Source of the DNA: Balanoglossus misakiensis
Taxonomy: Eukaryota > Animalia > Hemichordata
NCBI GenBank assembly: GCA_040954595.2
Contig: CM082576.2
Span: 18,337,028-18,401,027, forward strand
Reading direction: 5' to 3'
DNA: 64,000 nt
In this document: positions 1 through 40,760 of the stretch, piece by piece
How the letters are laid out: every line of letters starts with the position of its first letter
Position numbering within the stretch: position 1 is the stretch's first letter
The notes under the pieces: generated by a model
Seen by the model: the letters and a program-made list of their open reading frames with translations, nothing else
What the model was told of the DNA's origin: nothing
The model's database searches: none
Translations under genes and position numbers: made by a program

Positions 1-3000
1 CAGGTGACACAAGTGACCCCCAACTTAGGCTTTTCAATTGTAGTCCCAACCATGCAAACGCCAAGTCTGTACCTGCTCAGGATGCCAAGATATAGGAAAG
101 TAGGTCAAAGGTCAACTAAGGTCACCCAAAATGTGGGCAAGAAATTTTGACCCCATACTGGTCCATGTCTCACAAGAACAAAACCTCTAGCCCTAATAGT
201 TACCCCGGAATTAGGTATGCACATAATTCATGAGTTCACGCAGGTGTTACAGGTGAGCCAAAATTTTGCCTGTTATTTTGGTCCCATTGTGCTCACTGGC
301 CAATAGACAGTCACTGTACAGGATCGTCGCACAGACCAGATGAATTCCACACTAAGACGTGTACATAGCTTAACTATAGAGGTATAAGTAAAGGTATAAA
401 TTTAATGTAAAAAATTAATATAAAAAAATCAGTCGATTTTTCATATTATTTTTTTTCGCTGCAAATGATTGACAAATTCTAGGGTAGCTGCACACCAAAG
501 TTGGAGATGATCGGCCTAACAGATTTTGAGATATGTATGCGTATTTAGCCAAAATAATATGTGGTCATAGCTTTACTATGTAAAGTATAGGCCCATGGCT
601 TGGGCGAAAAATATGGAAAATAATACTTAAAAATCTTCTTCTCGAAATTGACATGGCCTATAGCCTTGACATTTGGCATGTACAACCCTGGCCAGATGGT
701 CTACAAAGTATGTTAACAGAATTTTGATATGTCCATTCATATGCAAATTAGGCCAAAATTAAAATTGTGCCCATATATGGTCATCAGGTCACGTGACTTA
801 TTAAACATTCACAAGGGTACTGCACCAGCTCTCATTGGCCTGCACCATTGTGCCAACTTTGAAATTTGTAGGTTCAGCCGTTTTCCGGATCTAGCTGGCC
901 GAAAAAACTACACAAGAAAAAAAAAGAAGAAGAAGAAGAAGTAGAAGAAATATAGCTGCAAGCAGCAATGGCGGGCCCAAGCCAACATAGCACATAGCAA
1001 CATAGCAATAAGCATATCTGCTCTGGATGCCAAGATATGGAAAAGTAGGTCAAAGGTCACCTGAGGTCATCCAAAATTTGGGCGAGAAATTTTGACCCTA
1101 TACTGGTCCATGTTCATCAAAAACCAAACCTATAGCCCTATTGGTTAGCCTGGAATTAGGTATGCACATAATTAATGAGGTAGGCAGGTGTCACAGGTGA
1201 CCCCCCAATTTGGCTTTTCAATTTTAGTCCCAACCCTCCAAACGCCAAGTCTGTACCTGCTCTCGATGCCAAGATCTGGTAAAGTAGGTCAAAGGTCACC
1301 TGAGGTCATGCAAAATTTGGGCAAGAAATTTTGACCCTATACTGGTCCACGTTCAACAAAAACAAAACGTATAGCCCTATTGGTTAGCCTGGAATTAGGT
1401 ATGCACATAATTAATGAGATATGCAGGTGTCACAGGTGACCCCTATTTTGGCTTTTCAACTTTAGTCCCAACCCTCCAAACGCCAAGTCTGTACCTGCTG
1501 TGGATGCCGAGATATAGGAAAGTAGGTCATAGGTCACCTGAGGTCACCCCAAATTTGGGCAAGAAATTTTGACCCTATACTGGTCCATGTCCCACAAGAA
1601 CGAAACCTCTAGCCCTCTTAGTTAGCTCAGAATTAGGTATGCACATAATTAATGAGTTAAGCAGGTGTTACAGGTGAGCCTAAAATTGTGCCTTCTATTT
1701 TGGTGCCATTGTGCTCACTGACCACAAGACAGTCACTGTACAGGACTATTGCACAGACCAGAATTCCACAATAAGACATGGACATAGCTTAACCATAGAG
1801 GTATAATTAAAGGTATAAATTTCATTAAAAAATTAATATAAAAAAATCGGTCGATTTTTCATACTATTTTTTTTTGCTTAAAATTATTGACAAATGCTAT
1901 GCTAACTGCACACCAAAGTTGGAGATGATTGGCCAAACAGATTTTGAGATATGTATGCATATTTATCCAAAATAGTATGTGGTCTTAGCTTTACTATGGA
2001 AAGTATAGGCCCATGGCTTGGTCAAAAAATATGAAAAATAATACTTAAAAATCTTCTTCTCAAAATTGGCATGGCCAATGGCCTTGACATTTGGCATGTA
2101 GAACTCTGGCCATATGGTCCACAAAGTATGTTAACAGAATTTTGATATGTCAATGCATATGCAAATTAGGCCAATTTGAAAATTTTGCCCATATATGGTC
2201 ATCAGGTCACGTGACTTATTAAACATTCACAAGGGTACTGCACCAGCTCTCATTGGCCTGCACCATTGCGCCAACTTTGAAATTTGTAGGTTCAGCCGTT
2301 TTCCAGATCTAGCTGACAAAAAAAACGACAGAAGAAGAAGAAGTAGAAGAATATAGCTGCAAGCAGCAATAGCGGGCCCAAGCCAACATAGCACACAGCA
2401 ACATAGCAATAAGCATATCTGCACTTGATGCCAAGATATGGTAAAGTAGGTGAAAGGTCAACTGAGGTCATGTTATATTTAGGCAAGAAATTTTTACCCT
2501 ATACTGGTCCATGTTCAACAAAAACCAAACCTATAGCCCTATTGGTTAGCCTGGAATTAGGTATGCACATAATTAATGAGGTAGGCAGGTGTCACAGGTG
2601 ACCCCCAATTTTGGCTTTTCAATTTTAGTCCAACCCTCCAAACCCCAAGTCTGTACCTGCTCTGGATGCCAAGATCTGGTAAAGTAGGTCAAAGGTCACC
2701 TGAGGTCATGCAAAATTTGGGCAAGAAATTTTAACCCTATACTGGTCCATGTTTAAGAAAAACTAAACCTATAGCCCTATTGGTTAGCCTGGAATTAGAT
2801 ATGCACATAATTAATAAGGTAGGCAGGTGTCACAGGTGACCCCCAATTTTGGCTTTTCAATTTTAGTCCCAACCCTCCAAACACCAAGTCTGTACTTGCT
2901 CTGGATGCCAAGATCTGGTAAAGTAGGTCAAAGGTCACCTGAGGTCATGCAAAATTTTGGCAAGAAATGTTGACCCTATACTGGTCCATATCCAACAACA

Positions 3001-5087
3001 ACGAAACCTCTAGCCCTCTTAGTTAGCCCAGAATTAGGTATGCACATAATTAATGAGTTAAGCAGGTGTTACAGGTGAGCCCAAAATTTTGCCTGTTATT
3101 TTGGTCCCATTGTGCTCACTGCCCAATACACAGTCACTGTACAGGACTGTTGCACAGACCAGAATTCCACACTAAGACGTGTAATGTTCATAGCTTTACT
3201 ATAGAGGTATAAGTAAAAAGGTATAAATTTAATTAAAAAAATTTATATAAAAAAATCGGTCGATTTTTCATATTATTTTTTTTTCGCTTAAAATGATTGA
3301 CAAATGCTAGGCTAGCTGCACACCAAAGTTTGAGATGATCAGCCTAACAGATTTTGAGGTATGTATGCATATTTATCCAAAATAATATGTGGTCATAGCT
3401 TTACTATGTAAAGTATAGGCTGATGGCTTGGGCGAAAAATATATAAAATAATACCTAAAAATCTTCTTCTCAAAATTGACATGGCTTATGGCCTTGACAT
3501 TTGGCATGTAGAACCCTGGCCATATGGTCCACAAAGCATCTGAACAGAATTTTGATATCTCCATTCATATGCAAATTAGGCCAAATTGAAAATTTTGCCC
3601 ATATATGGTCATCAGGTCACATGACTAATTACACATTCACAAGGGTACTGCACAAGCTCTCATAGGCCTGCACCATTGTGCCAAATGTGAGATTTGTAGG
3701 TACAGCCGTTTTCAAGATCTAGCTGGACAAAAAAACGACACAAGAAGAAGAAGAAGAAGTAGAAGAAAAAACCCAGTAATACCAATAGGGCCCAAGCCTG
3801 CTGGGCTTGGGCCCTAAATATAGCTGCAAGCTGCAATAGTGGGCCCAAGCCAACATATCACATAGCACATAGCAACATAGCAATAAGCATATCTGCTCTG
3901 GATGCCAAGATATGGTTAAGTAGGTCAAAGGTCACCTGAGGTCATGCAAAATTTGGGCAAGAAATTTTGACCCTATACTGGTCCATGTTCAACAAAAACC
4001 AAACCTATAGCCCTATTGGTTAGCCTGGAATTAGGTATGCACATAATTAATGAGGTAGGCAGGTGTCACAGGTGATCCCCAATTTTGGCTTTTCAATTTT
4101 AGTCCCAACCCTCCAAACGCCAAGTCTGTACCTGCTCTGGATGCCAAGATCTGGTAAAGTAGGTCAAAGGTCACCTGAGGTCACCCAAAATTTGGGCAAG
4201 AAATTTTGACCCTATACTGGTCCATGTCCCACAAGAACGAAACCTCTAGCCCTCTTCGTTAGCCCAGAATTAGGTATGCACATAATTAATGAGTTAAGCA
4301 GGTGTTACAGGTGAGCCTAAAATTTTGCCTTTTATTTTGGTGCCATTGTGCTCACTGACCAATAGATAGTCACTGTACAAGACTATTGCACAGACCAGAA
4401 TTCCACAATAAGACATGGACATAGCTTAACCATAGAGGTATAAATAAAGGTATAAATTTAATAAAAAAATTAATATAAAAAAATCGGTCGATTTTTCAAA
4501 TTACTTTTTTCCGCTTAAAATTATTGACAAATGCTAGGCTAGCTGCACACCAAAGTTGGAGATGATCGGCCTAACAGATTTTGAGATATGTATGCATATT
4601 TATCCAAAATAATATGTTGTCATAGCTTAACTATGTAAAGTATAGGCACATGGCTTGGGCGAAAAATATGAAAAATAATACTTAAAAATCTTCTTCTCAA
4701 AATTGACATGGCCTATGGCCTTGACATTTGGCATGTAGAACCCTGGCCATGTGGTCCACAAAGCATCTGAACAGAATTTTGATATCTCAATTCATATGCA
4801 AATTAGGCCGATTTGAAAATTTTGCCCATATATGGTCATCAGGTCACATGACTTATTAAACATTCACAAGGGTACTGCACCAGCTCTCATTGGCCTGCAC
4901 CATTGTGCTAAGTTTGAAATTGGTAGGTTCAGCCGTTCTCCAGATCTACCTGGCCGAAAAAACTACACAAGAAGAAGTAGAAGAAAAAAGCCAACAATAC
5001 CAATAGGGCCCAAGCCTGCTTGGCTTGGGCCCTAAAAATCAGGATAATAACAATAGGGCCCAAGCGCTGCATGCGCTTGGGCCCTAA
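1..5087 (+). repeat. Head-to-tail tandem array of ~1.3-1.5 kb units (Helentron/HINE-like), each with 2-3 internal ~240-bp sub-repeats, a (GAA)n tract and, in some units, a terminal GGGCCCAAGC..GCTTGGGCCC hairpin
   Basis: Units start ATATAGCTGCAAGC at ~950, 2351 and 3818. The sub-repeat CTCTGGATGCCAAGAT recurs at ~240-bp spacing (1021/1261/~1499; 2661/2900; 3895/4135). Hairpins lie at ~3786-3816, ~5004-5034 and ~5054-5086. The array runs off the left edge. The Helentron/HINE assignment is inferred from this architecture. Confidence 0.85.
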
Positions 5088-5555
5088 TTATCGCAAGGTC
5101 ATTCATGCTAATAGGCTTAAACGAGCTTATCTCAGGCCATCAGAGTTTAACTCCTATTTTCATCATCAGAATCAGAAGAGGAGAATGAACCATTGCCACT
5201 CTCGCATACCAACAACCCTCACTTATCTGGTAATGAAATTTCTTCTAGGGTTGAGCAATCAGACATTAATTCACATACACAGAATGATTCACGTCATTCT
5301 TCAGATACGGAATCGGACGATTCCAATTAGCAAGCTAGCGATACTTCGTCTGACTCTTATTACGAAGTTGAAAGAGTCTTTAAAGGACGTTATAGAAATG
5401 GGAAGTTACAGTATTTAATAAAGTGGAAGGGGTATTCAAATAGGAATAATACCTGGGAAGACGAAGAAAACTTAAATGAGGTTGTTAGAAAAGGATTGCA
5501 GAAAAATCCTGTGAAGATAACGGGGAAGCCGATAATAGCGTCTTTCAACATTTAA
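5088..5555 (+). pseudogene. C-terminus of gypsy Pol: integrase tail, acidic linker and chromodomain; disrupted
   Basis: The frame from 5352 reads [43 protein letters not shown], a canonical chromodomain pattern, and stops at TAA 5553-5555. There is a 1-nt frameshift near 5160 and an in-frame TAG at 5328. The ORF track misses this domain. Confidence 0.88.
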
Positions 5556-5799
5556 TGAAAAGTTAGCGCCGTATTTCAGCAGGACCTTGAACCTAGTCAC
5601 TGGAGTGTTTGTTGTAGTATGATAGTACGCGTACGAGGGGGCCCCCGTGTGTTAGAGTGTGTATTAGAGGTGACATAGTTTCTTGACCTGTTGTTTACGT
5701 AACTAAAGAATTTCATTCATGAGAACTTGTTTATGTAACCAAGTATGCCATTGATACAAGTTAATCACTTCATGCCTGGCTATACACACTTGAAGCTGT

Positions 5800-5899
5800 C
5801 CATACTTTATTATTTTTATTCTTTGCTTTGCTTTTCCTTTCTTTATTTTATTGTTTTTCCTAGTTTCCCTATATTTTCTTTTGCATTCGTTACTTTTAG
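5800..5899 (+). promoter_or_regulatory. Splice acceptor for env subgenomic mRNA
   Basis: A ~95-nt polypyrimidine tract ends in TTTTAG (AG at 5898-5899) immediately before the env reading frame, which has no ATG ahead of its signal peptide (the ORF track starts at TTG 5903). Confidence 0.75.
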
Positions 5900-5902
5900 G
5901 CT

Positions 5903-8900
5903 TTGGTGCATGCCCTGATCTTCGTAGCATGTTTCACCTGCCTATTTCAAGTCGCCAGTAGTGTGAATCCAGACTTGGTCGTTCGGCAGAATTTTGGAGT
6001 CATCTTTGAGCCTGTCGCTTTGGTTGAAGTTGCTCATTCCCACTGGCACGTTACCTTCTCGGTACCAAGGTTCAACTTTTCTGGTATAGACGATCTCATT
6101 ACTTCCATGCCTGATGAATATCCCTGTGCAGGACCTACTCTACCTCGATCTTGCTCAATACACGATAGGTCTCTGGAGGCCTATCAGAAAGAAACTGTCC
6201 AATTGCTCAGGGATGCTCATCGGGTTAGACGTGAAATTAATGATGTATTAGGGACAGATGATTTTGAGGATAATCAAAGTTCCCGTTCTAAGAGAGAGGC
6301 TTTTATACCAATTATTGGCAAATTATCTAAGTCCTTATTTGGGACAGCCACGTCAAAAGATGTCGAGATTTTGGCCCAGCACGTACAGCAAGCAGAAACA
6401 ACTGCCAATAAGAACAAACGGTTTATTTTGAATTTTGAAAAGGGATTAAATACCGTTGTTCAACTTACTAATAATAGGATTGATAACTTATGGCAATCTT
6501 TTAGTGAGACTCATAGTACAGTAATGGCCTTGACGTTAACTGTAGAATCATTGAGGGATTATATTAATATGGGGGCTGAGGACCAAGTAATAATAGCAGA
6601 CGAGATTAACTTAATACATGATGTATTAAACCGTAGGACCACATACTTGTTGAGGTTATTATTTCTAGCCGAGGGAAGGTTAGCTGCCTTAAAAACGTTA
6701 GTATTAGGTCATTTGCCTCCTGAGTTGGTCAGCACATCGGACATCCGACAAGCACTTCAATCCATCACTAAATTTCTCGATCGCAAATATCCTCACTTTC
6801 ATATAGCTCATCAACATCCTAAATATTATTATGAACAAGGTCAAATAATGTTTCACCACACAAATGCCAATTTATACATCAAGTTGACCGTTCCATTAAC
6901 CAAGATGGACACCATTCACCAACTGTATAGGGTTTTGTCCTTTCCGGTTCATCTCCCTGATTCCTTTGGTTCCCGACAGCCAGATTCTGTGTTTGATAAT
7001 GGAGTCACTGAGATCCAAGAATTACCTTCATATTTTGCTGTGGCAACTGACGGATCCATTTACTTTGAATTGACAAGTGATCAATTTTCATGTTGTACTG
7101 GTGGTAAGGTGAAGCGGTGCATTACACCTTTTCAAGTCTATAAAAAGGAATTTGATCATTGTAGTTGGCATCTGTTTCAAGACAATGTGACTGGTATAGA
7201 CGCACATTGTCAAACATCATTGACTCTTCTTCCGGAAAAGACATCACGTGTTATTCAACTCACTGAATCTAAGGCTTTGATTGAAGGTTCCACTTATGAT
7301 TGGAAATTCCATTGTAATAATCAATCCATAGTTCCTCTGCGAAAATGCAACTTTTGCATTGTTGACGTTCCTTGTGATTGCAAATTACATTCCGCTGATT
7401 TATATTTACCTGCTGTAATTACAACTTGTCAGCCGAACTCTTCTATTTCGGTGGTTCATGCAGCCAATATTGTCTATCTTAACTCTTTCTATCCTATGAA
7501 AGCCCTTGGTAACTTCTCTGGTATTTCTACTTTTAATAAGCCTTGGATCACACAACTTCCTAATGCATTGGTATTGCAACAGCAATGGAATCGTTCTCTA
7601 ATGGTCGACAAGAATATTAAGGTTGACTTAAAAAGGGCAGCTCAAGTTATCAAAGACCATGAACAAGCGTTCATTAGCCCTATAGATGAGGCTGCCTTCT
7701 CTTATGATTGGACAGACATATTAACCAATTCCTTTTCTATGAAACTTGCAATTCCTGCAGTTGTTGTTATAGGACTATCTTTACTATTCCATATCTATCT
7801 CTTTCTCCGCATACGAAAGTTGGCACTTGCTGTAATGATATTGAAAGTACCCAAAGTGGTTCATGCTGCCACCCCACCACAATTTCTCTATTGGGACACA
7901 ACCAACATGCCTGTCACAGATTGGATTACTCCGTTTGACTTCGCCTCACACCTTTCTGTTGACTTGCAGACGCTTCGAACTGTTATTCTCGCTATTGTTG
8001 TCCTCGTCATCACATACAAAGTGTTGAAGTTGGCTCTCATACAAGGTCGTAAATACCTTTTCGGGCATTTTGTGAAGAACTCATTCATCTGTCGCAATTC
8101 TCCTAAGGCCAACATTTACTTAGAATTGGCATCCACCACAGACACCATTTTACTTTTCATTGACACCATCCGCTACTCTCCGTGTTCGGTTCGAACGCCA
8201 CCACTCACATCGGATAGTTTGACTATCTCGGAGAAATCATTGTTGTCAAATTATTTGCGGATATCATGGTCTCCACTGCAGGTTATTCAGTGTGACGGTG
8301 CTAGTCCTTTGATCACCAATGATTTGGAATTGAAAAGTAAAATACGTCTCCCATACTTCACTTATCGCCAACTAAGGTCGCTTCCATTACCCTCCCTTCG
8401 TCTACGCCTCTTAGCGGGTTATTCTCAACATTCCATCTACTCTGAGATTAAAATCATTGATTCTCAAACCCCTACTTCTAGGTTGCAGACTGTTCACCTA
8501 GAATTACTTGAAATAAGTCGAGAAATTGCCCATCTCCGACGAGCTTTCGGCATTTTGCCACCAGCTTGTCACTCAGTTTCTGACCTAGAGAGTGATGTTA
8601 CACCTTTCCACTACGGACACGACGACGAACCCAACATCCATAGACAGCGACGGAAAATCCAACGTCGCATCCCCAAACATCTAAAATACCCTGAAGAGGT
8701 ACTTGACAAACCACGATACCGCAATGTATCAACTGACGATACAGACGACGACAAAGACGGTCACTCTTATCGGAATAGAACAACCCACAAGGCTCAAATA
8801 GGTATAGTCAAAATAGAATCGGAAGTCCAACCTACGAAAGGTTATAGAAATTTGCCATTTATTGAAGAGGGGCCACTCCCTCCACCTCCTCCGCCACCTC

Positions 8901-9070
8901 CACCCCCTCTACCACCAAAAACGTCCGCTTCTGTTTCGGCGGTTGCCTCTAAAACTTCTCGTGTAAGGGAAACTAAGGACGTCAAATTAAAAGTCCACAT
9001 TCCCATGGAGAGGAAAGATACTAGTCGTAGTGTACGGGACGCCATGATTGAGTACGGCTCACCCCCTTAA
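5903..9070 (+). CDS. env: Envelope glycoprotein, class I fusion protein of baculovirus-F/errantivirus Env type, with extended C-terminal region
   Basis: Uninterrupted 1055 codons. Hydrophobic signal peptide; furin site RSKR (6284-6295) followed by fusion-peptide motif EAFIPIIGKLSKSLFGTATSKD; heptad region; Cys-rich ectodomain with N-glycosylation sequons; TM LAIPAVVVIGLSLLFHIYLFL (~7745-7810). It lies between pol and the 3' LTR. Confidence 0.9.
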   Translation: MVHALIFVACFTCLFQVASSVNPDLVVRQNFGVIFEPVALVEVAHSHWHVTFSVPRFNFSGIDDLITSMPDEYPCAGPTLPRSCSIHDRSLEAYQKETVQLLRDAHRVRREINDVLGTDDFEDNQSSRSKREAFIPIIGKLSKSLFGTATSKDVEILAQHVQQAETTANKNKRFILNFEKGLNTVVQLTNNRIDNLWQSFSETHSTVMALTLTVESLRDYINMGAEDQVIIADEINLIHDVLNRRTTYLLRLLFLAEGRLAALKTLVLGHLPPELVSTSDIRQALQSITKFLDRKYPHFHIAHQHPKYYYEQGQIMFHHTNANLYIKLTVPLTKMDTIHQLYRVLSFPVHLPDSFGSRQPDSVFDNGVTEIQELPSYFAVATDGSIYFELTSDQFSCCTGGKVKRCITPFQVYKKEFDHCSWHLFQDNVTGIDAHCQTSLTLLPEKTSRVIQLTESKALIEGSTYDWKFHCNNQSIVPLRKCNFCIVDVPCDCKLHSADLYLPAVITTCQPNSSISVVHAANIVYLNSFYPMKALGNFSGISTFNKPWITQLPNALVLQQQWNRSLMVDKNIKVDLKRAAQVIKDHEQAFISPIDEAAFSYDWTDILTNSFSMKLAIPAVVVIGLSLLFHIYLFLRIRKLALAVMILKVPKVVHAATPPQFLYWDTTNMPVTDWITPFDFASHLSVDLQTLRTVILAIVVLVITYKVLKLALIQGRKYLFGHFVKNSFICRNSPKANIYLELASTTDTILLFIDTIRYSPCSVRTPPLTSDSLTISEKSLLSNYLRISWSPLQVIQCDGASPLITNDLELKSKIRLPYFTYRQLRSLPLPSLRLRLLAGYSQHSIYSEIKIIDSQTPTSRLQTVHLELLEISREIAHLRRAFGILPPACHSVSDLESDVTPFHYGHDDEPNIHRQRRKIQRRIPKHLKYPEEVLDKPRYRNVSTDDTDDDKDGHSYRNRTTHKAQIGIVKIESEVQPTKGYRNLPFIEEGPLPPPPPPPPPPLPPKTSASVSAVASKTSRVRETKDVKLKVHIPMERKDTSRSVRDAMIEYGSPP

Positions 9071-9389
9071 AGAGAAAGTATAACGGTATTAACTATAAGT
9101 TAAAACAAGACTAACGATAACAAAAGATGGAATATATGAATATATGAAAAGACTAAGGACGAGAAATTAAAATTTGTTTTTACTTAACGAGTAGGGCGCC
9201 ATAGAAATTAGCTTAGTTTTTTTACATATATACGTATTTTATATTAACCTTGTGCACATGTGTGTGTTTTGCTTATATCCGCTTCGTTTATGTATTTTTT
9301 ACTTTTTCATTTTTACTGAGATTTGTATTCTTCATTGAGTATTTTTTTGTAACGATCAATGCGGGTCGCATTGCTTTAAATGAAGGGAG

Positions 9390-10109
9390 TGTTACGATAT
9401 ATAAAAATAGGAAAATTAAGAATTTCGCTCATAATAAAGAATTGTAATTTCTATGATTAATTTCCAATTAGATTAGTAACTCTGTGTATAGAGGTCAATA
9501 ACTCCATGTATAGAGGTCAAATACTTTTAGGTAAGACATTAATTAATAGCCACAACATTTAATTACCTTGGAGATATCGAGTACCTTACAAATAATGAGA
9601 CCTGGGAATTTCAATCAACGAATGAGTTTTACTTACATATTTTACGTAATGTACCTCTATATTATTAAAATACGAGGGAGGAGATGTTTGCATACGATGG
9701 TTGCTAGTCCTTGTATTTGATCACCTTCAGTTGGTCGTGATCTTGACAGACATAATTTCTTCTTTGAGAACCGACAGCCAATCCGAAGGATATTTCAGTG
9801 TGTAATAATTTTGTAATTAGACGATCAAGAATATGCCGATGTGTTGTAAAGTTGTAATTGGACAATGAGAATCACGCTATGATGAATCTTTGATTTCTCT
9901 TCTTTCTCAAAGACATATAAACTCTGTAATTTCTTGCTTTTAGGTAGAACAACCATCTTGCAGACAACCGTGTGTTGTAAAGCCTTTGCACCAGAAATAA
10001 AGCATTCTGACTCCCACTACTTCCAGTCTCAACGAGTCTCTACTTTGGTAGATCCTGTACACCTCTTTGCTACTGCAAAGTTAGAGTACCATCTGGTCCA
10101 GCCGTAACA
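9390..10109 (+). repeat. 3' LTR (720 bp) of the env-bearing gypsy element
   Basis: 7-bp terminal inverted repeat TGTTACG/CGTAACA; preceded by the PPT; TATA-like CATATAAA at ~9914 and AATAAA at 9996-10001; satellite sequence resumes at 10110. Confidence 0.9.
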
Positions 10110-12071
10110 GTGCAAATAAGAGTTCCCTGCAACGCAGCGGTGTAAATAAGATTTCTCTGCACCGCAGCGATCTGACCGTTCTTTATTCACTCCTCGGGGA
10201 TAAAAACGTTTTATTACGGCCTAAAAACGCAGCGTAGATATTGAAATAAACTGGATATATGAAAATAATAAAAATTACAATGATAATGTCGTTAAAAGTT
10301 CTCACGAAAAAAAGAAATAAAAAAGTGGTCTCGAACCAACATCAGTTAACACCTTCAGGTAAAAGGTTAGCCTTCGTGAACCATTCGCCATCATGATGTG
10401 TACTCGAAAAAGGCGGAAATTTTCCGCACTATATTGCAGCATAACTCCAATGATCTTATTTGCATCTCAACGGTGCAAATAAGAGTTCCCTGCACCGCAA
10501 GGATCTGACCGTTCTTTATTCACTCCTCGGTGACAAAAACGTTTTATTACGGCCTAAATAACGACTTTTTCGCTCCTTGGTTGGTCATGCGGACGGAAAG
10601 ACACGGTTATAGCGAGTTTATCTTTCTCTCTCCTGAGCACTCCGTATTCAGACTTGCCCAAGTGAACTGCGAAAAAAAATGACCAAGTTTCCGAGCATGT
10701 TTCTTATACCCGACAGATAAAAAAACGCAGCGTAGATATTGAAATGAATTGGCTTTATGAAAATGATAAAAATTACACTGATAATGTCGTTAAAAGTTCT
10801 CACACAAAAAAAAAGAAATAGAAAAAAAAAGTGGTCTCGAACCAACATCAGTTGACACCTACAGGTAAAATGCTATCTTTTCTGAACCATTCGCCATCAC
10901 GTTGTGTATTCAAAAAATCGGAAATTTTTCGCACTATGTTGCAGCATAATTCAAATGATCTTATTTGCACTAGTCTAGAATCTATCCGTTCGTAGTCGCC
11001 CTACTACCGTCTAGGAACGCGTAACCAAAATCTAGTAAGGCCATAAAAATGGTAATTTGAATGTGAATAGTCTCCAACTGAGCAGTCTGACGTCAGAGAA
11101 GTCAATCACTTACGTTGACCGACTACTGATTGGCTATCAATGTTAATGAGGTGATGACGTTGAATGTTAATTATGTTTACAATGTAGCTCCGCCCCGAAT
11201 GATACATAATCATGATCACGTGGTGACGCTTGATGTCAGATTGTTCAGTTGGAGACTATTCACATTCAAATTACCATTTTTTATGGCCTTACTAGATTTT
11301 GGTTACGCGTTCCTAGACGGTAGTAGGGCGACTACGAACGGATAGATTCTAGACTAATTTGCACCACAGCGGTGCAAATAAGAGTTCCCTGCACAGCAGC
11401 GGTGCAAATAATAGTTCCCTGCACCGCAACGATCTGACCGTTCTTTATTCACTCCTCGGCGATAAAAACGTTTTATTACGCCTAAATAATGACTTTTTTG
11501 CTCCTTGGTTGGTCATTCGGACGGAAAGACACGGTTTTAGAGAGTTTATCTTTCTCTTAGCTGAGCACTCCGTATTCAGACTTGCCCAAGTGAACCGCGA
11601 GAAAAAAATGACAATGTTTTCCTGCATGTTTCTTATACCCGACATATACAAATCGCAGCGTAGATATTGAAATAGTTTGGATTTATGAAAATGTAAAAAA
11701 TTACAATGATAATGTCGTTAAAAATTCTCACAAAAAAGAAATAGCAAAAAGAGCTCTCGAACCAACATCAGTTTACATCTTCGGGTAAAGGGCTAGCCTT
11801 ACTGAACCCTTCGCCATCACGATGTGTACTCGAAAAAGTCGGAAGTTTATCGCACTATTTTGCAGCATAACTCCATTGATCTTATTTGCACCGCAGCGGT
11901 GCAAATAAGAGTTCCCTGCACGGCAGGGGTGCAAATAAGAGTTCCCTGCACCGCAACGATCTGACCGTTCTTTATTCACTCCTCGGCGATAAAAATGTTT
12001 TATTACGGCCTAAATAACGAATTTTTCGCTCCTTGGTTGGTCTTGCGGACGGAAAGACACGGTTTAAGCGA
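10110..12071 (+). repeat. Satellite B (~530-bp unit with variable 29-bp sub-repeat GCGGTGCAAATAAGAGTTCCCTGCACCGC), left block
   Basis: GATCTGACCGTTCTTTATTCACTC recurs at ~10169, 10502, 11431 and 11958; the same unit continues after 22921. Confidence 0.9.
10971..11356. mobile_element. MITE (386 bp) with ~125-bp TIRs and 8-bp TSD (hAT- or Academ-like)
   Basis: Termini TAGTCTAGAATCTATCCG...CGGATAGATTCTAGACTA; TSD ATTTGCAC at 10963-10970 and 11357-11364. Confidence 0.92.
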
Positions 12072-14138: not shown

Positions 14139-17100
14139 ATGGAATCACAAAACGTTGACCGGAGCAGCCAGACATTGGCAGCACTGAAGGGAAAGGTTTG
14201 TGTTTCTTCTTTGAATGGTATTAAACAGCTAACTACGAATCAGCTTAGGGCCCTGTTGACGGAGAATGGTGATTAATAGAATCTCACACTCCCAAGGACC
14301 TGGGATCGTATTTCTCACACGAGTTGGGGATATTTTGTCCCACACGAGCCGCAGGCGAGTGTGGGACAAAATATCCCCGACGAGTGTGAGAAATAGGATC
14401 CCAGGTCCTTGGTGTGTGAGATTCTTTTTCTCACACGACCAGAAATTTGCGATATTAACATTTATTTACAACAAAATAACTCAATCTATAAAATACCGAC
14501 TGATAACTGCATGACCGGCCATATATTGATCCGCCCCGCGAAACATAGTCCCCATTATATCACAAGTTTAAAGTACACACATGCTACAAAAATGTGCCCA
14601 ACACATTAAAATATGGAAATTGTTTCCTGTGGCATAAATTCGCGCGATATCTAGAAAATACAACCGTTTTTGCGAGTCTGTCGCCAACCACGTACACCAC
14701 TGTCGTCTGCACATGACCTGATCACATTGTAGTTCCGGTTCGTGTACAACACATCACACAATTGGATAATATTTGCTTGTTCTGAGGGGTATGAATATCA
14801 TTATCCAATCAGAGCTCGTGTCAGAAAACACTTGTCTGTGTGCGCATTAACACAGAGTGTGGGATAGATTTGATCCCACACTCTCTATCCCACACTCCCA
14901 GCGGCCAGGAGTGTGAGAATACCAAGTTCCATCTAAGTGTAGGAAAGCAGATCTTGTACTGAGGGCATATGCAGTGATGTCTTCTGTAGGCGAATGTAGA
15001 ACCAGAAACTTACCCTGTGATGTGGAAACAAATAGGGACATTACGTATGGAGACTTGTTAAAAGAGACAGTAGGAGGAACATGGCTGAGAGACTTGAGAA
15101 AGGTTCCACCATTGACATTTATTCAGCTCTATGAATATTTAGTGATAAAGACAAAAAGATATCACATGAATAAACTTGACGTTGGCAGGATTAAATACAA
15201 GAGACTTAAATCATACAAATACTTCTATGAAGGAAACATTAAGGATATGCAGGTTATGGTGAAAGACCAATATAAGTATTTAAAGGCTAAAGTTCTACCT
15301 TCAATGAAACCAAAGCCATACATGGCAATGATTGTCTTTTCCATAAGCTCATGAGAAGTTGTCAAGGCAGCCTGTGAATGTCCAGCTGGGTAACTGAAAC
15401 TTTATTCACAAGCACAAGATGTGCATTTTTAGTTTCCTGCTACAAGATTTCTGTGGGCAGTGAATCTTAATGTTGCTCTGATATATCACCTTTTTTTGTT
15501 ACACTAGAATTACAGAATTATAAACAAATATAGAGCTTGTGCTCTTAAGGAAAAAGTACCCATGTTTTTGGCTGTTGATTTCATTTTTTTTTTAATTTTG
15601 TTATGTTAAAAGCGACAGTAGCTGTAACTTCTGAAGACTTTTCTGTTCATCTTTAGCAAAAACACTTCCCAGCATTTATATGAGAGCTTTAATTGTTATT
15701 ATTGTTTGTTAAAACACTCAGATAGTATGCATGCTTATAATTTTACATTTAGGAGTTGGTTCCCTTTAACTTAGGTTTTTCTGTAGTACATGTATGACAT
15801 TGTGTAACTTTTGTGTTGGGTACTATCATTTTAGTATCATAAAAATAAGCATGGAAGCATACACTGGCCTGATTATTGTAACCTATATGTTTACAGACGT
15901 TGAAATTATGGACTTGGAAAATGTTCACATGTTGGTGGTGTTCTGTTTGCATTGGAGGACTTCCATAGACGTGGACTTCATGATCACCCAGAGCCGTTAT
16001 CATGTACATCAAGACTCTCTGTATGGGTTGTACCCAGGAATCTCAAGGTAAGTTGCTGAATTTCAGTATTACTGCATCAATACATGTGTATACATGTATG
16101 ACAACACATACACATGTTGACTGGCCATGAAGGGAGGGTAGCAGCATATATTTGTCTCTTGAACCCTCATTTATACATGGCTGTATTTTATATTTTGGTA
16201 TCATCACTTGATATATCTGGTATCATAACCTTTGTCATGTCTGTTTCTATCCTTTTCAGGTTGACCCAAAACCTCTAAATGAAATCACTATATTTCAGCC
16301 TCATTATGGGAGGTCAGGTAGGCTTATGTGTCAGTCATCTTCAAGATATGATGTCAGGGCACCTCAAGATCGACAGCTGGGTGAAAGATTTCCAGAGCTC
16401 TGCAGCACATTACAGCAGTGTCTGCAATCCTCCTCGTTTTTCCTGTTTCATGACCTTCAACCACTGCAACATCTAGAGTGTACAGAAGTTGATGTTCCTG
16501 TCACAGTTGATATTACTGGTACTCAGGGTACCATGCCATTCAGTAATGACTATGAAATTAGCTCAACATCTTTCAAGGACATGGTTGATTGCCAAGTGAA
16601 CAATATGAAAGTGTCAAATGATGAAATAAATGCCATAAAATTGAAAACAAGGGAATGAAGGGACTCGACAGAATGGTTAGAGATCAGAAAAACCAAACTC
16701 ACTGCTTCAAATTTTGGTATGGAAATAAAATGTAGAGTGGAACCATCTAAGTATCTTAGAAATATGTTGTACAGAGATATCAAAACCATGTCCATGAAAT
16801 ATGGCAATATTTATGAACCTATTGCAAGACAAAAATACATTGAAATGAAAAAGAAAGTGGGTACTGATATTGATGTTGAAAAAGTGGGATTATGGTTAAG
16901 TTCAGAGAAGCCATATTTGGGTGCAAGTTTTGATGGCCTTGTGAAAGGAGATCCAGAGGGAGATGTGATATTGGAGTGCAAATGCCCATCATCAAAAGCA
17001 GGTATGACTGTTGCTGAGGCATGTAAACACAAATCATTTTGTCTTCGCTTAGATGAGGGGGGTCCACACTTGAAAACAAACCATGCTTACTGGCATCAAG

Positions 17101-17336
17101 TTCAAGGTCAAATGTATTGCACAGGAATAAGATGTGCTGATTTTGTCATTTTTTGGGGTGAGGAACTACCACTCTTTATTGAAAGAATTTATTTTGATGA
17201 GTGCTGGTGTAGAACATCACTGCCAGCAGTAGATTATATCTATAGAAGGGCTGTTTATCCTGAGCTGCTAACGCGGAGAGTTGAACGTGGTCTCACTTTA
17301 TACACGCAGTTGGGTTGGAAGCCATATGTATCATAA
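14139..17336 (+). pseudogene. ISL2EU accessory gene: SAP-like motif, SWIM zinc finger and YqaJ/lambda-exonuclease domain; spliced, disrupted
   Basis: ATG at 14139; the frame is restored by removing 14276-14921 (LTTNQLRALLTENGDYQVPSKCRKADLVLRA). SWIM CECPAG..CSH spans an intron. YqaJ motifs WLEIRKTKLTASNFG, GASFDG, ECKCP and YWHQVQGQM. In-frame TGA at ~15352, ~15901 and ~16656. Confidence 0.85.
14276..14921. mobile_element. Non-autonomous element with a long terminal hairpin (Crypton-associated type)
   Basis: A ~70-bp-arm hairpin is centred on CACGAGCCGCAGGCGAGTG (~14343-14361) and the element ends GTGTGAGAATA. Its removal precisely restores the host exon (GAT TAC CAA). Confidence 0.75.
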
Positions 17337-17940
17337 TTTAGCTGTATGTTAAAGGGACTAATTCTGCCAATTTACGAAATGAATAAACGCAGAATCCATA
17401 CATGTATTTACATGCCATAAGTGAGTGTATTTTTTATTAAAACATATTTACAAGTGTTCACTGCATATTACATTTGATACATTTAATAAATTAGATAAAT
17501 CACACAACTTTTTCAATGAATTCTTTGACCTTTGTATACAATGGTATATGTGTGTACCCATAAATAAGTCATTACAATGTCAAAAGTTATTTCATATTAA
17601 TATTAAATGGTCACAACTTGTCATACTTCATTCTTGCATTTTTTGATCAACTATGTACAATAAAGATAAATCAGTTACACTGATACAGAATAAAATCTCT
17701 TACAATGAAACAGGACTGTATGTTTCCTTGATCCAATGAAAGAAAAAATCTGAATGAAAATTTAATATTATAAAGTGCACATTTTAGTGTCAAGTTGACC
17801 TTTTGGACAGACTGGAAGACACAGTGACAAGAATAATATTTAAAGGACTGGCTGACAATCGTGAACTTGATTCAGTGATATTTTAAAGTGGGGTCAATGA
17901 GAACATGCATGTCCTGCATGATCTTATATCATATTAATTT

Positions 17941-20159
17941 CTATTGAGGGGCAATGGTCTTTGGCGGAAGTAAAGGGGGAAGGAAATTTGTCAAATATGC
18001 ACATACTGTCACTAACTCATTGGTGATGTGTTTTAGGGACAATGGAATTACTCCATCAAGGATATGGTAATTTTTCAATCTTCCAATAGCCCTTTCAACA
18101 TGTATCCTTACACTTGCAATGTTGTTGGTCTCTGTAACTTCAGCTGAACTTAGCTGGGCACGGTCCCTCTTAAATGGAGGTATATTTAGAGTTACTCCAG
18201 GTGGTAGAACATCCCCAATTTCAAATCCCCTGTCTGCCATGACATTATCTCCTTCATCAAGTTTTGCAAGAATACCACAATCTTTAGTAATGTTGTGATC
18301 AGAGACCCTCCCACCCCACAAATCAGAAACAAATATCACCTGACCATTTGGGGAAATTCCAACCAAAACCTTCCACGTGTTATGGTGTTTATAGGCTGAC
18401 CATGTTTGTGATTGAGCAAGCATGGAGGAAGGCACCTCGATAAAGAATTCTGTGCAATCAAGTACCACACGTGTTGTAGGATATAGCTCAAATGCATGGG
18501 GCATATTCTTTTGTATAGAGTGCTGAGAAGGGAAGGGAAACAACAACAAAAGCTCATGTGTAAGGAAAATAATCCATGTAGTGAAAATTTTAGATACAGA
18601 AGATGGTGATATGCCAAATCTGTCAGCCAAATCCTTCACAAACAGTCCAACCCTACATCTGACTAAAACCATAATAAATTCATCTAATAAAGTAAGCTTG
18701 CGTTTTGGTCCCGGTTTTGACTTGGAATGATCTTGATAGGGCACGGATTGTTTCATCTGTTTTTCACCCTTCCAATATTGCAGTTTGGTGGCTTTAGGTT
18801 CAGGGTAATGAAAAAATGCAAAAAACTATCATAATTTGGAAAACCTGTATAAAATTAGACTGCACTGTCATCTTTGAAATTATCAACACAAAATTTTCTG
18901 TTTTTCAATTCATCAACCTCAATTTGTAGTTGCCCAAGTTTGGATTTTAAGTTTTGTATTTCTGCAGTACATTCTGATACTTTTTTCTCTAAATATAAAA
19001 TATAATCATTACACATAAAGGAAGGCTTAGTAAAACAATACGAATGTTCTTCAATGTGTTGTGGTGGCTGAACAAATGGCTGTGCGTGGTGGTTGAATAA
19101 AAGCACTATCTGTCTGTACAGCAGCATCTTTCAAACCAATCTGAAAAAAAATAAAAATCACTCAAAATATAACAATATGTTGTAACAAGTACAAATCTGA
19201 GATGTCACTCACACGTCACAGACTATTATTTTTAAAGTGGCAACTACATAACATTTATACATTTAAAAATTTGAACCTTTCTTCAATATCACACTATATC
19301 GGAGAAAAAAATACAAAACATGTTTGAACAAATTATATATTTAAGTTTATTTCAATTGGGAAAAATATTTTCTTATTTGACTATCCGGGGGTAAAGTTTG
19401 GTGATGGTTTTTTTTAAATAACTAAGGTAAAGAGTCTCCATTAATGAATGATGCTTACCTTCTTGTTTTCTTTCCTATCTTCAAAGTCTAACCTTTTAAC
19501 TGCTTTTGGTTTTATCAGGTTTCTCTGTTTTGGATGTTCTCGCCGTATAATTTTCTTAGCTGGCTGCACAGAATTCGGAACAGCTCCTACAGTAAGTTAA
19601 AGATTGATGAACTATTTAGAAATGTATGTTTAAATACATATTAATGCAACACACAACATTCTTTTACTCTTGCAGTGCTCATTACATAGCTGCCAGCAAA
19701 ACACAAATGATATTTTCACTGGCAATAGTATGCAAATAAAGTGTGAAAATAATCCCCATTGAAATTGTACCAAATTATATCTAGTGACTTTGCAGAGGCA
19801 ACTCACTAATTATACTTTTTCAAGTACCGTAAATTTCTGCCCCCACAAATGCAATGTCACAAACCATAAATGTTTACTAACAAGCTTTACTTGCCTGGTC
19901 TCAATTTCCATATCTTTGCTCCAAATGATACTGATATGTCTTCCTTTTTGAAGTGGTTATGGCAGACAACAGTAGAACCTCGAACATGAAAGCCATCTCT
20001 TCCATCTTGACGACATATCTTACTGCACCAGAGGTTCTTTGTTGATGGTTTACTGGGAAACCTGAAAAAATGGATTCCAGTTGGGTTTCCTTTGCTGTCC
20101 CTGGCAGTATTTGTACATCCATATGCACAGCACTGCTTACCTCTACTGATTCTGGGCAT
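17941..20159 (-). pseudogene. ISL2EU transposase (THAP, coiled coil, HTH, DDE_Tnp_4/HARBI1-like), 3 exons, disrupted
   Basis: THAP exon CCAYGC..FFRFP..W..CHNHF (20159-~19892); middle exon ~19588-19461; catalytic exon with LDCTE, YKHHNTWK, MADRGF and RIHVERAIGRLK. Stop and frameshift near FYTGFPNY (~18810-18860). Confidence 0.88.
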
Positions 20160-22921: not shown

Positions 22922-24783
22922 GCTAGTTTATCTTTCTCTATCCTGAGCACTCCGTATTCAGACTTGCCCAAGTGAACCGCGACAAAAAAATGACCAAGTT
23001 TCCCTGTATGTTTCTTATACCCGACAGATAAAAACGCAGCGTTGATATTGAAATGAATTGGCTTTATGAAAATGATAAAAATACACTGATAATGTCGTTA
23101 AAAATTCTCACAAAAAAAGAAATAGAAAAAAAAGGTCTCGAAACAACATCAGTTGTCACCTTCAGGTTAAAGGCTAGCCCTCCTGAACCATTCGCCATCA
23201 CGATGTATACTCGAAAAAGTCGGAAATTTTCCGCACTATATTGCAGCATAACTCGAATGATCTTATTTGCATCTCAGCGGTGCAAATAAGAGTTCCCTGC
23301 ACCGCAACGATCTCACCGTTCTTTATTCACTCCTCGGCGACAAAAACGTTCTATTACGGCCTAAATAACGACTTTTTCGCTCCTTGGTTGGTCATGCGGA
23401 CGGAAAGACACGGTTTTAGCGAGTTTATCTTTCTCTCTCCTGAGCACTCCGTATTCAGACTTGCCCAAGTGAACCGCGACAAAAAATGACCATGTTTTCC
23501 TGCATGTTTCTTATTCCCGACAGATAAAAAACGCAGTGTTGATATTACAATGAATTGGCTTTATGAAAATGACATAAATTACACTGATAATGTCGTTAAA
23601 AAATTTCACACAAAAAAAGAAATAGAAAAAAAAGTGGTCTCGAACCAACATCAGTTGACACCTTCAGGCAAAAAGGCTAGCCTTCCTGAACCATTCGCCA
23701 TCACGATGTGTACTCGAAAAAGTTGGAAATTTTCCGCACTATATTGCTGCATAACTCCAATGATCTTATTTGCACCGCAGCGGTGCAAATAAGAGTTCCC
23801 TGCACTGCAGCGGTGCAAATAAGAGTTCCCTGCCGCGCAACGATCTGACCGTTCTTTATTCACTCATCGGCGACAAAAGCGTTTTATTACGCCTAAATAA
23901 TGACTTTTTTGCTCCTTGGTTGGTCATTCGGACGGAAAGACATGGTTTTAGAGAGTTTATCTTTCTCTTAGCTGAGCACTCCGTATTCAGACTTGCCCAA
24001 GTGAACCGCGACAAAAAATGACCATGTTTTCCTGCATGTTTCTTATACCCGACAGATAAAAAACGCAGCGTTGATATTGCAATGAATTGGCTTTATGAAA
24101 ATGACATAAATTACACTGATAATGTCGTTAAAAATTTTCACACACAAAAAAAAAGAAATAGAAAAAATAGTGGTCTCGAACCAACATCAGTTAACTCCTT
24201 CAGGTAAAAGGCTAGCCTTCCTGAACCATTCGCCATCACAATGTGTACTCGAAAAAGTCGGAAATTTTCCGCACATTAAGAGTTCCCTGCACCGCAGCGG
24301 TGCAAAATAAGAGTTCTCTGCACCGCAATGATCTGACCGTTCTTTATTCACTTCTCGGCAATAAAAAACGTTTTTTTTACGGCCTAAATAACGACCTTTT
24401 CGCTCCTTGGTTGGTCATGCGGACGGAAAGACACGTTATTAGCGAGTTTATGTTTCTCTCTCCTGAGCACTCTGTATTCAGACTTGCCCAAGTAAACCGC
24501 GACAAAAAAATGACCAAGTTTCGCTGCATGTTTCTTATACCCGACAGATAAAAACGCAGCGTAGATATTGAAATGAATTGGATTTATGAAAATGATAAAA
24601 ATTACAATGATAATGTCGTTAAAAGTTCTCACAATAAAAAGAAATAGAAAAAAGTGGTCTCGAACAAACATCAGTTGACATCTTCAGGTAAAAGGCAAGC
24701 CTTCCTGAACCCTTCGCCATCACGATGTCGTTAAAAGTTCTCACACAAAAAAATAGAAAAAAGTGGGCGCTTGGGCCCCTAAC
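22922..24783 (+). repeat. Satellite B, right block, ending in GCGCTTGGGCCCCTAA
   Basis: Unit anchors at ~23309, 23842 and 24330. Confidence 0.9.
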
Positions 24784-26438: not shown

Positions 26439-27261
26439 CACTGTAAAAATAGCGGACGCCAGACGCGTAATTACGTGTTCAAACTTTAGACGTTGGTGTT
26501 CAAATTTGAACACATAGTGTTCATAGTGTTAACGCCATGTTAAATATTGCACACACTTAACCTGCACACAAGGCGTTAACAACCCATCCCCCTCAAGTGT
26601 TCAAAACCAATGCAAGATCGTAATTTTGCAATATGTGTGAAAGAATCAACAATTTTCGGTTGTTTTAGTCCAATATGGTTTTGTCAAATTTGCAATTGCC
26701 TGGCTGCCCGGCAAACATATACGATTTTGATATAAGGTGTGGCACACCAAGTGCACGAAAAATATCTCCGGTCTGCAGTTGCCAAATGCATGTTTTTCCT
26801 GAAAAGAAGGTCCACACAATAGTTTCAGATATTTAGTTCCGGTTGAAAATTTGAAAAATTGCAAAAAAACATTAGAAAACCATTTCGTTTTGTTACTTCT
26901 AACATTGGCGTGCAAGGTGGCGTTCTATCCCTAAACACTTGGTGTTTAATTTTGGAGCCCTTTTTTTCATTTGTGGAAACGCGCGAATGCATGAGGTGCG
27001 CTGCAGAAGGCAGTCGTGCGGAAGCAAGACCAGACTTTGGTAAGACATTTTTGAATGAAACACCAAAACCTTCTATGAATATGTTGATACACGTCATTGT
27101 TGGAGCTTCCCATCGGCTTTTAACGTCAAATTTATTCATCATCAGACCTATCAACGGTAGCGGGTAGTGAAGTCTGCACCTTACTGCACTCTACTGTTGC
27201 ATTTTTCATGAGCATTGCATAATCATATGTCCTTTTCTTCAATGAATTCATTCTTTATTTA

Positions 27262-33891: not shown

Positions 33892-34581
33892 GTAAAAACT
33901 CGGGCGCAAGTAAAAACTCGAGTGCGAGTAGGAACTCGGACCTTCGAAACAGAACTCGGAACGGACGTAAGTCTTTCAACGATCAGCCTGCTGTTCGATC
34001 TGGAGGTAAAATTATCGTCCTACATCATTGTGTGTGACGTCATCGGTTCATCCGAAGACTCGTCGTCGAGGGCGCTGTTACATGGTTCAGCCAGTATTCG
34101 CCTATTACCCTACTGTTGAATCAACCCATGAAGACTACAGACTGCAGAGAAGAGTGAAGATGTTCAGCGACTGTTAACAGAAGCAGCAGATTGAACATTC
34201 TGGACGCTCTCCTTCGGAATTAGGACAGAATATTGAACATTGACTTTGAACATTAATATTGAACTTTGAACTCTGAGCACATTTCCTCATTGTCATTTTG
34301 GCTTGTGTGCATGTGTGATTTGAACATTCAGTTTTATCAATGTCCCCAAATTGTGCACATTAGTGTCACTCGTATCAGCCTTTGCGATACAAAGAGTCTC
34401 CTTTGTTGAAACTCACACAGTTTTGTATTTGTCAAAGTGTTTGAAATTTTTCACTGTCAGTACCCGGCATCAAATTGCTTGTGTAGTTACTCCCTCGGGT
34501 TTAGATTTCCAAATTTGTATCAACTCTGAATAGTCACAGTGATCGTTTCAGCTCTCTAGTTGTGTTCACCCAAGTTCAACT

Positions 34582-40500: not shown

Positions 40501-40760
40501 AGAGAAACCTTGAAGTTGGAGATATTGTACTTCTGAAGGAAGATGACACTGTGAGAAATCAGTGGAGACTTGCAAAAGTAATAGACACTTTGCGCGATGA
40601 TGATTGTTTGATACGCAGAGTCACTATCCTTGTGGGTGATCCCAACCTCTCGAAACAAGGACAAGGTAAGAAAGTAGACAAGGCAACAATTTTAGAAAGG
40701 CCTATTCATAAGCTTGTTTTATTGGTAGAAAATCCCGAAGCAGAAAAAATGCTAAGGTAA
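34582..40760 (+). pseudogene. BEL/Pao Gag-Pol (gag, CCHC knuckles, aspartic protease, RT, RNase H, integrase) with a frameshift near 36300 and a stop at 37938
   Basis: CVFCKKTGH and CFGCLNTGH knuckles; ALLDTQSD; WYIPHHGVYHPKKPDKIRVVFDCSA; FYVDD; LHHFSDAS; ENPADHASRG; integrase H-H-C-C, DCFGP, CDRGSNF and GGVWERQIR. Confidence 0.93.

What the first reader, a model, noticed from the sequence alone, without database searches (positions are those of the whole stretch)
5088..10109. Retrovirus-like gypsy element combining a chromodomain-integrase with an F-type env
Seen: an integrase tail and a canonical chromodomain ([23 protein letters not shown], aromatic-cage residues present; missed by the ORF track), then a 1055-codon class I fusion protein, PPT and LTR. 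Known: chromoviruses generally lack env, and insect errantiviruses with baculovirus-F-like env generally lack chromodomains. Inference: this may be a potentially infectious invertebrate retroelement lineage that targets heterochromatin, which fits its position inside a satellite array.
Basis: partly seen in the sequence, partly recalled or inferred. Interest (0 to 1): 0.85.

Follow-up and report, generated by a model that had tools for sequence, protein, structure and literature searches.

The report
Broken chromodomain errantivirus with F envelope
This is the broken 3' end of a retrovirus-like jumping gene, likely from an acorn worm, that carries both a histone-reader-type chromodomain and a virus-type fusion protein; the pairing is real but already published for many marine invertebrates, so it is most likely a new member of a known group.

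Summary
Observation confirmed: a canonical chromodomain (Pfam 54.5 bits), a 1056-codon F-type env (predicted fold matches RSV/hMPV and baculovirus F), a purine tract and a 720-bp LTR. One high-depth contig from the same organism joins chromodomain and env, so they belong to one element. The novelty claim fails. Chary and Hayashi (eLife 2026, PMC13524379) list 28 chromodomain-carrying errantiviruses; of the 19 whose env type I checked, 17 are F-type, one from the acorn worm Ptychodera flava. The nearest env found is also from P. flava (64% over 296 aa). The satellite argument fails too: the left-hand 'satellite' is a tandem array of HINE-like (Helentron) elements. High-depth copies lack it at that point, so it likely landed in the integrase later. 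Two additions: env lacks a start codon and likely is spliced at a strong acceptor; and a TAG stop just before the chromodomain is shared by the high-depth contigs, either programmed readthrough (about 15%) or a founder lesion. RT and the integrase core are absent, so Ty3/gypsy membership is inferred. The scan's notes hold no look-alike on other DNA.

The parts
1..5087 (-). Tandem array of about four HINE-like (non-autonomous Helentron-type) units of about 1.3-1.5 kb, 90-93% alike, each with 238-bp central repeats; not part of the retroelement, likely inserted into its integrase at a TT
   Evidence: TT at 5087-5086, 11-bp subterminal repeat 5085-5075, its inverted copy 5065-5055, (CTT)n microsatellite, 3' subterminal repeat plus short palindrome near 3850-3818, 2383-2351 and 982-950; runs off the window's left edge
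5086..5155 (+). Last ~23 codons of a likely integrase C-terminal module, cut on the left by the HINE-like array; frameshift near 5150-5160
   Evidence: motif resembles integrase tails of L005 and L006 by eye; not detected statistically
5160..5327 (+). Acidic, serine-rich linker in the chromodomain's frame
   Evidence: a similar linker precedes the chromodomain in L003
5328..5330 (+). In-frame TAG between linker and chromodomain, also present in the high-depth contigs of both runs
   Evidence: the 5 other letters and 1 gap between 5086 and 5920-5960 are all listed and none falls in this codon
5331..5555 (+). Canonical HP1/CBX-type chromodomain (5361-5483) with aromatic residues intact and a short C-terminal extension; no Met
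5806..5899 (+). Long pyrimidine tract ending in AG: predicted splice acceptor for env
   Evidence: 83% pyrimidine over 92 nt; the only one of 3665 AG sites in the window that reaches 82%
5900..9070 (+). F-type (class I fusion) env, 1056 codons stop to stop: signal-like start, furin-type site, fusion-peptide-like segment, two hydrophobic regions, and a ~340-aa tail ending in a polyproline stretch
9378..9389 (+). Purine-rich tract (polypurine-tract-like) abutting the LTR
   Evidence: sequence
9390..10109 (+). 3' LTR, 720 bp, TG...CA with 7-bp terminal inverted repeat; no second copy in the window
   Evidence: LTR contigs lie at about 2.2-2.3 times the depth of internal contigs in run X1 (a hint only)
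10110..12071 (+). 3' flank: a different, very abundant repeat of ~500-bp units with 30-bp sub-repeats, the likely insertion site of the retroelement
   Evidence: further copies at 22922-24759

Best explanation
This is the 3' end of an LTR element carrying a chromodomain and an F-type env, most likely a young, multicopy Ty3/gypsy 'ancient errantivirus' of the published chromodomain-bearing kind in a likely hemichordate host, and this copy is broken. How it would work, step by step. Shown: the order integrase-like tail, linker, chromodomain, env, purine tract, LTR, and the F-type predicted fold. Inferred from other families: genomic RNA gives Gag and Pol; env is made from a spliced RNA that joins an upstream start codon to the acceptor at 5898-5899; furin cleaves Env, which would fuse a particle membrane with a neighbouring cell as in Drosophila gypsy; a chromodomain on the integrase would bias insertion to methyl-lysine chromatin as in MAGGY. 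In this family a TAG precedes the chromodomain, so most integrase molecules would lack it and targeting would be weak or lost unless the stop leaks. History, inferred: this copy inserted into a ~500-bp repeat, and a HINE-like array later landed in its integrase at a TT.
For: Chromodomain. F fold; 1454 relatives at E<=0.001. Linkage: one 2804-nt contig at depth 418.5 spans 5086-7842 in run X1. Youth: X1's three main internal contigs differ from the window at 10 letters over about 4330 bases. Host and kin: nearest env is a Ptychodera flava protein, 64% over 296 aa, sister to the window's at 100/99 in a 24-row tree. Published kind: 28 of 139 rows carry a chromodomain; 17 of 19 checked have F env, including Pfla_errantivirus_1. 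Relatives: of 5 metagenome loci, L003 has a chromodomain above the Pfam cut-off upstream of env, L005 and L007 weak ones, L006 a gypsy-type integrase (rve, H2C2, weak SH3_Tf2-1) with a chromo-like tail by eye, and L004 has only 602 nt upstream. Splicing; spliced env-F is the rule in insect ERVs (PMC12992720). HINE: against PMC7492417 and PMC4067079.
Against: No RT or integrase core lies in the window and no genome is held, so the Ty3/gypsy placement and the clade rest on env kinship and architecture. The integrase tail failed both statistical tests. I did not show that the P. flava proteins belong to Pfla_errantivirus_1. The three runs are one sample, held as contigs that drop rare variants, and depth is no copy number. 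The acceptor is in phase 0 in the window but the best candidates in 4 of 5 relatives are in phase 1, and 13% of random 100-nt stretches hold a comparable weaker AG. The shared TAG departs from the published picture of a chromodomain at the end of Pol.
Confidence: 0.82

Rival explanations
1. The TAG before the chromodomain is a programmed leaky stop: the family makes mostly a short integrase and a little integrase-chromodomain fusion, which tunes how many insertions go to methylated chromatin. This is compatible with the best explanation and changes only the role of the stop.
For: The stop is in the high-depth contigs of both runs. The chromodomain behind it is intact, has no Met of its own and stays in the linker's frame. 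A C follows the stop, a context reported to favour readthrough for TGA (10.1101/2022.12.06.519325). Stop readthrough is used between gag and pol in Tj1 (PMC4600332).
Against: The family is so young (0.2% differences) that a dead chromodomain would still look intact. Neither of the 2 relatives that could be read has such a stop: L003 is open for 48 codons before its chromodomain and L006 has integrase and chromo-like tail in one 621-aa frame. No unusual RNA structure follows the stop (z +1.2). The context matches 5 of 6 positions of the recalled yeast readthrough motif and not the recalled TMV-type motif.
Confidence: 0.15
2. A new, undescribed infectious lineage that targets heterochromatin, shown by its seat in a satellite.
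For: Both domains are real and linked. The 3' flank, the likely true insertion site, is a very abundant repeat. The env tail is about 200 aa longer than in most relatives. Without RT a separate origin cannot be excluded.
Against: The architecture is published, a hemichordate example included. The left array likely postdates the element. One site in a window full of transposons says nothing about preference. The shared stop argues against constitutive targeting.
Confidence: 0.07
3. A chance chimera: a chromodomain-bearing element and an env-bearing element nested or fused at this one locus.
For: The window copy is truncated and lies among many nested transposons.
Against: A single contig bridges both at the same depth as the rest of the internal region (418-425 in X1), and L003 repeats the order at 27% env identity.
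Confidence: 0.02

Closest known systems
Chromodomain-carrying 'ancient errantiviruses' of Cnidaria, Mollusca, Annelida, Nemertea and Hemichordata, such as Pfla_errantivirus_1 of Ptychodera flava (Chary and Hayashi, eLife 2026, PMC13524379)
   Same: Chromodomain after the integrase, F-type env with furin site and fusion peptide, LTR; the nearest env found is from P. flava (64% over 296 aa).
   Different: This copy is truncated and frameshifted; a TAG shared by the high-depth contigs separates the chromodomain from the integrase; the env is longer (1056 codons against about 780-900 in most hits). The paper's main text does not mention splicing, readthrough or heterochromatin (0 hits each).
Insect errantiviruses (Drosophila gypsy, ZAM; PMC12992720)
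   Same: F-type env; env likely made from a spliced RNA.
   Different: No insect row in the paper's sheet carries a chromodomain; this env matches the baculovirus F model only weakly and groups with marine-invertebrate sequences.
Chromoviruses (MAGGY, Tf1/sushi; passages in PMC4600332 and 10.1101/2022.12.06.519325)
   Same: Canonical chromodomain behind the integrase; MAGGY's binds H3K9me2/3 and steers insertion.
   Different: They lack an F-type env (recalled); the paper places chromodomain errantiviruses basal to, not inside, chromoviruses; RT placement could not be tested here.
HINE / DINE-1 non-autonomous Helentrons (Cg_HINE of oyster, PMC7492417; PMC4067079), for the left-hand array
   Same: 5' subterminal repeat with inverted copy, microsatellite, central tandem repeats, 3' subterminal repeat with palindrome, TT target, tandem whole units.
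   Different: 238-bp central repeats, longer than the 140-180 bp typical of the oyster set; inner units lack their 5' end; no autonomous partner was sought.

Membership tests
Errantivirus in the broad sense (env-carrying Ty3/gypsy; PMC13524379) | Env of F or HSV/gB type downstream of pol | tested here: met
Errantivirus in the broad sense (env-carrying Ty3/gypsy; PMC13524379) | Furin site followed by a hydrophobic fusion peptide, and a membrane anchor | tested here: met
Errantivirus in the broad sense (env-carrying Ty3/gypsy; PMC13524379) | Pol classified as Ty3/gypsy by RT and integrase | not testable with these tools
   No pol in the window, no genome held; indirect support from the gypsy-type integrase of env relative L006
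Errantivirus in the broad sense (env-carrying Ty3/gypsy; PMC13524379) | LTR-gag-pol-env-LTR order | tested here: inconclusive
   3' half in the expected order with purine tract and LTR; 5' LTR and gag not in the window
Chromodomain-carrying ancient errantiviruses | Chromodomain coded between integrase and env on the same strand | tested here: met
Chromodomain-carrying ancient errantiviruses | Placement in that clade by the RT/connection tree | not testable with these tools
   RT absent; the env tree joins it to a P. flava protein
Intact errantivirus (the paper's inclusion rule) | Full-length RT and integrase in continuous ORFs, no large truncation | tested here: not met
   This copy is cut at 5086 and has a frameshift and a stop; it is filed as a broken copy, not as an intact element
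Chromovirus | RT/IN placement within the chromovirus branch | not testable with these tools
   RT absent; not filed as a chromovirus
Chromovirus | Chromodomain fused in frame to the integrase | tested here: not met
   TAG at 5328-5330 in the window and in the high-depth contigs; readthrough not excluded
HINE (left array) | 5' subTIR plus IR, microsatellite, central repeats, 3' subTIR plus palindrome | tested here: met
   against passages
HINE (left array) | Insertion at TT | tested here: met
   TT on the minus strand at 5087-5086, where the high-depth contigs start to match; the far end is outside the window
HINE (left array) | Autonomous Helentron partner sharing the subTIR | not tested
   no genome held

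The most novel reading that the evidence does not exclude
This envelope-bearing family uses a leaky TAG to make two integrases, a common one without and a rare one with a methyl-lysine-reading chromodomain: a translational switch on insertion-site choice. Two full-text searches found readthrough only between gag and pol.
Probability: 0.15. Interest if true: 0.65.

Novelty: new member of a known kind. Interest (0 to 1): 0.24.

Why it matters
As it stands it adds a young family, likely from a hemichordate, to a group for which the published survey lists a single hemichordate element, and shows a likely splice acceptor for env that the survey did not discuss. Whether these chromodomains steer insertion, and whether these Env proteins make particles infectious, is untested outside Drosophila according to that paper's discussion (for env). 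If the shared stop proved to be programmed readthrough, it would be a new way for a retroelement to ration chromatin targeting.

Tried and rejected
No genome is held for the window, so copies, RT and insertion sites could not be pulled out. Sequence search of the PDB with env gave nothing meaningful (2 matches at E 0.6-1). The word-based protein search found only 2 weak env relatives and 1 chromodomain protein among 293 candidates; the integrase-tail search had 1 candidate and no hit, so no close Pol relative could be read across the stop. BLASTP of the tail against L006 and a three-sequence profile against 2712 six-frame segments did not pick out the tail. Scans with the window's env alone confirmed 0 of 90 metagenome and 0 of 5 viral candidates; the chromodomain scan of viral contigs gave 2 loci of 16, of which L001 is an env-less gypsy element and L002 was not examined. 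No RNA holder was listed, so splicing and expression are untested. The env tail had no usable Atlas hit. RNA structure after the stop was no more stable than shuffles. A separately spliced chromodomain exon was considered: three weak AG candidates lie between 5160 and 5360, nothing more supports it. Copy number from depth was rejected as a measurement; an unrelated contig at depth 21.6 in X1 and 91.9 in X2 would imply some 17-19 copies only if it is single-copy, which is unknown. Complex prediction was not run. Earlier scan notes: 0 look-alikes by sequence, 0 in this genome, 0 for the first word set, and none of the 8 shown of 16 for the second concerned an F-type env.

Full report
What is in the sequence. 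On the + strand the stretch holds, in order: about 23 codons that resemble the end of a gypsy integrase (5086-5155), a frameshift near 5150-5160, an acidic serine-rich linker, a TAG at 5328-5330, a 74-codon frame with a chromodomain, a 340-nt gap, a 1056-codon frame (5900-9070), a purine-rich tract and a 720-bp LTR ending at 10109. The chromodomain scores 54.5 bits on Pfam Chromo (cut-off 25.1) and matches 67 PDB sequences led by HP1/CBX proteins, with Y11, W32 and Y35 opposite the aromatic residues of CBX1 (their cage role is recalled). The integrase tail is the weakest part: it resembles the tails of L005 and L006 by eye but BLASTP and a small profile did not detect it. No other pol piece lies in the window.

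The env is F-type. Pfam Baculo_F is under its cut-off (20.1 against 24.1 bits), but a full HMMER scan found 1454 relatives at E<=0.001. A model built on the query and 97 of the 150 listed relatives has mean pLDDT 82.7. Its best solved matches are hMPV and RSV F (E 5e-10, TM-scores only 0.27-0.30 over the query). Among predicted viral structures it matches chuvirus-like glycoproteins, an abalone herpesvirus protein and baculovirus F (E 6e-26 to 2e-15). A furin-type site at residue 129 is followed by a hydrophobic peptide, and hydrophobic segments lie at 611-650 and 685-716.

Env likely is spliced. The frame has no Met until codon 70 and opens directly into a signal-like stretch. It begins right behind an AG that ends a 92-nt tract of 83% pyrimidines, the only one of 3665 AG sites in the window to reach 82%. 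Four of 5 related loci have an AG with a 20-nt tract of 70-95% pyrimidines 60-75 nt before the env match; these are in phase 1, the window's in phase 0, and 13% of random 100-nt stretches hold an AG at 75%. Insect errantiviruses make env from spliced RNA (PMC12992720, passages). Two P. flava gene models join gag-like sequence to the env start; these are predictions. No RNA run was available to test this.

Chromodomain and env belong together. Two DNA runs of one sample hold 86% and 79% of the stretch's words. In X1 one contig of 2804 nt at depth 418.5 spans 5086-7842, and the next internal contigs lie at 420 and 425; the two longest LTR contigs lie at 932 and 963. The three main internal contigs differ from the window at 10 letters over about 4330 bases, plus two gaps; a minor variant differs at 34 of 391. 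This fits a young multicopy family, though depth is no copy number. The frameshift, and a short in-frame gap in env, look particular to the window's copy, since the high-depth contigs differ from it there. The TAG before the chromodomain is shared: all differences between 5086 and 5920-5960 are listed and none touches it. Of 5 related loci from metagenomes, L003 has a chromodomain at 44.2 bits upstream of env, L005 and L007 weak ones (14.9 and 16.9 bits), L006 a gypsy-type integrase ending in a chromo-like tail seen only by alignment, and L004 has too little upstream DNA.

The 'satellite' is likely a later insertion. The left 5 kb consist of about four 1.3-1.5-kb units, 90-93% alike, each with 238-bp internal repeats. 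On the minus strand a unit reads TT, an 11-bp subterminal repeat, its inverted copy, a CTT microsatellite, the central repeats, a second subterminal repeat and a short palindrome. That is the anatomy given for HINE/DINE-1 non-autonomous Helentrons, which prefer TT and can stand in tandem (PMC7492417 and PMC4067079, passages). The high-depth contigs start to match the window at 5086, and their first 28 (X1) and 142 (X2) letters lie on nothing in the laid stretch, which included the array's end. So the dominant copies do not have the array there. The 3' flank, the likely true insertion site, is a different abundant repeat of about 500-bp units. One site in a window full of transposons cannot show targeting.

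Comparison with what is known. A full-text search led to Chary and Hayashi, eLife 2026, PMC13524379. I saw its abstract, passages, the first parts of sections 5, 6 and 9, all of section 14, all of supplementary file 4, and part 1 of 34 plus row searches of file 1; no figures. [quoted passage not shown] Its chromodomain sheet marks 28 of 139 rows positive by my count. I could read the env type for 19 of the 28: 17 F-type and 2 HSV/gB-type; 9 were not looked up. One is Pfla_errantivirus_1 from the hemichordate Ptychodera flava, chromodomain-positive and F-type. The window's nearest env is a P. flava protein, 64% identical over 296 aa, and the two are sisters at 100/99 in a tree of 24 rows chosen from the top hits, while the other top hits are mostly 21-31% identical. 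The host is therefore likely a hemichordate; I did not show that these proteins belong to the paper's element.

Mechanism. Shown: the parts, their order, their linkage and the predicted F fold. Inferred: Ty3/gypsy replication, spliced env, furin cleavage and membrane fusion as in Drosophila gypsy, and chromodomain-guided insertion as in MAGGY (PMC4600332, passage). The shared TAG means that plain translation would end the integrase before the chromodomain. Most likely it is a lesion in the founder of a young family that spread without targeting; the alternative is programmed readthrough giving two integrases. For readthrough: the shared stop, an intact Met-less domain in frame, and a C after the stop (10.1101/2022.12.06.519325, passage on TGA contexts). 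Against: youth explains intactness, 0 of 2 readable relatives have such a stop, and no structure follows it. The paper's prefilter allowed up to five stops per ORF, so its elements do not settle the point. Two searches found no report of readthrough between integrase and chromodomain; the library lacks most subscription journals.

Verdict. Real feature, correctly seen; a new, broken member of a published kind. Interest 0.24. The readthrough reading (probability 0.15) would deserve about 0.65.

Noticed in passing
window 7730-9070 (env residues 611-1056): Env has two hydrophobic regions separated by a short T/P-rich stretch, then a ~340-aa tail. The first ~150 aa of the tail align with four of five full-length relatives; the last ~190 aa, with a polyproline run, have no counterpart. 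The stretch after the first anchor looks by eye like an internal signal-peptidase site, which would release a second small membrane protein. No usable Atlas hit.
   Followed up: partly
P0014, P0153 (Ptychodera flava gene models): Both join a gag-like segment to the start of env; this may reflect a real gag-to-env splice or a gene-prediction join.
   Followed up: no
L005:517-891, L006:1670-1912, L007:70-276: Env relatives carry degenerate chromo-like tails that lack part of the aromatic set and end in a basic stretch; published chromodomain counts may miss such forms.
   Followed up: partly
window 34543-40760: BEL/Pao retrotransposon on the + strand (DUF1759, Peptidase_A17, DUF5641), in three frames; no env looked for.
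   Followed up: partly
window 16659-18825 and 59381-62795: Harbinger-type DDE_Tnp_4 transposases with YqaJ and THAP partner frames.
   Followed up: no
window 52242-52946: Tyrosine-recombinase/DUF3504 frame on the - strand, Crypton-like by recall.
   Followed up: no
window 10971-11356: 386-bp near-palindromic element with 79-bp perfect terminal inverted repeats, inserted into the 500-bp repeat; MITE-like.
   Followed up: no
window 22922-24780: Further tandem copies of the 500-bp repeat, ending at 24769 in the same 10-bp motif as the HINE-like array's subterminal repeat; the two repeats may be related.
   Followed up: no
window 27223-29735, 47794-49272, 50204-50935: Long frames (243-492 aa) with no Pfam match at E<=0.001; likely transposon-derived.
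   Followed up: no
BFVD entry A0A145VUZ2: An uncharacterised abalone herpesvirus protein is the second-best structural match to this env (E 2e-23, 16% identity), hinting at exchange of F-type genes between marine viruses and these elements.
   Followed up: no
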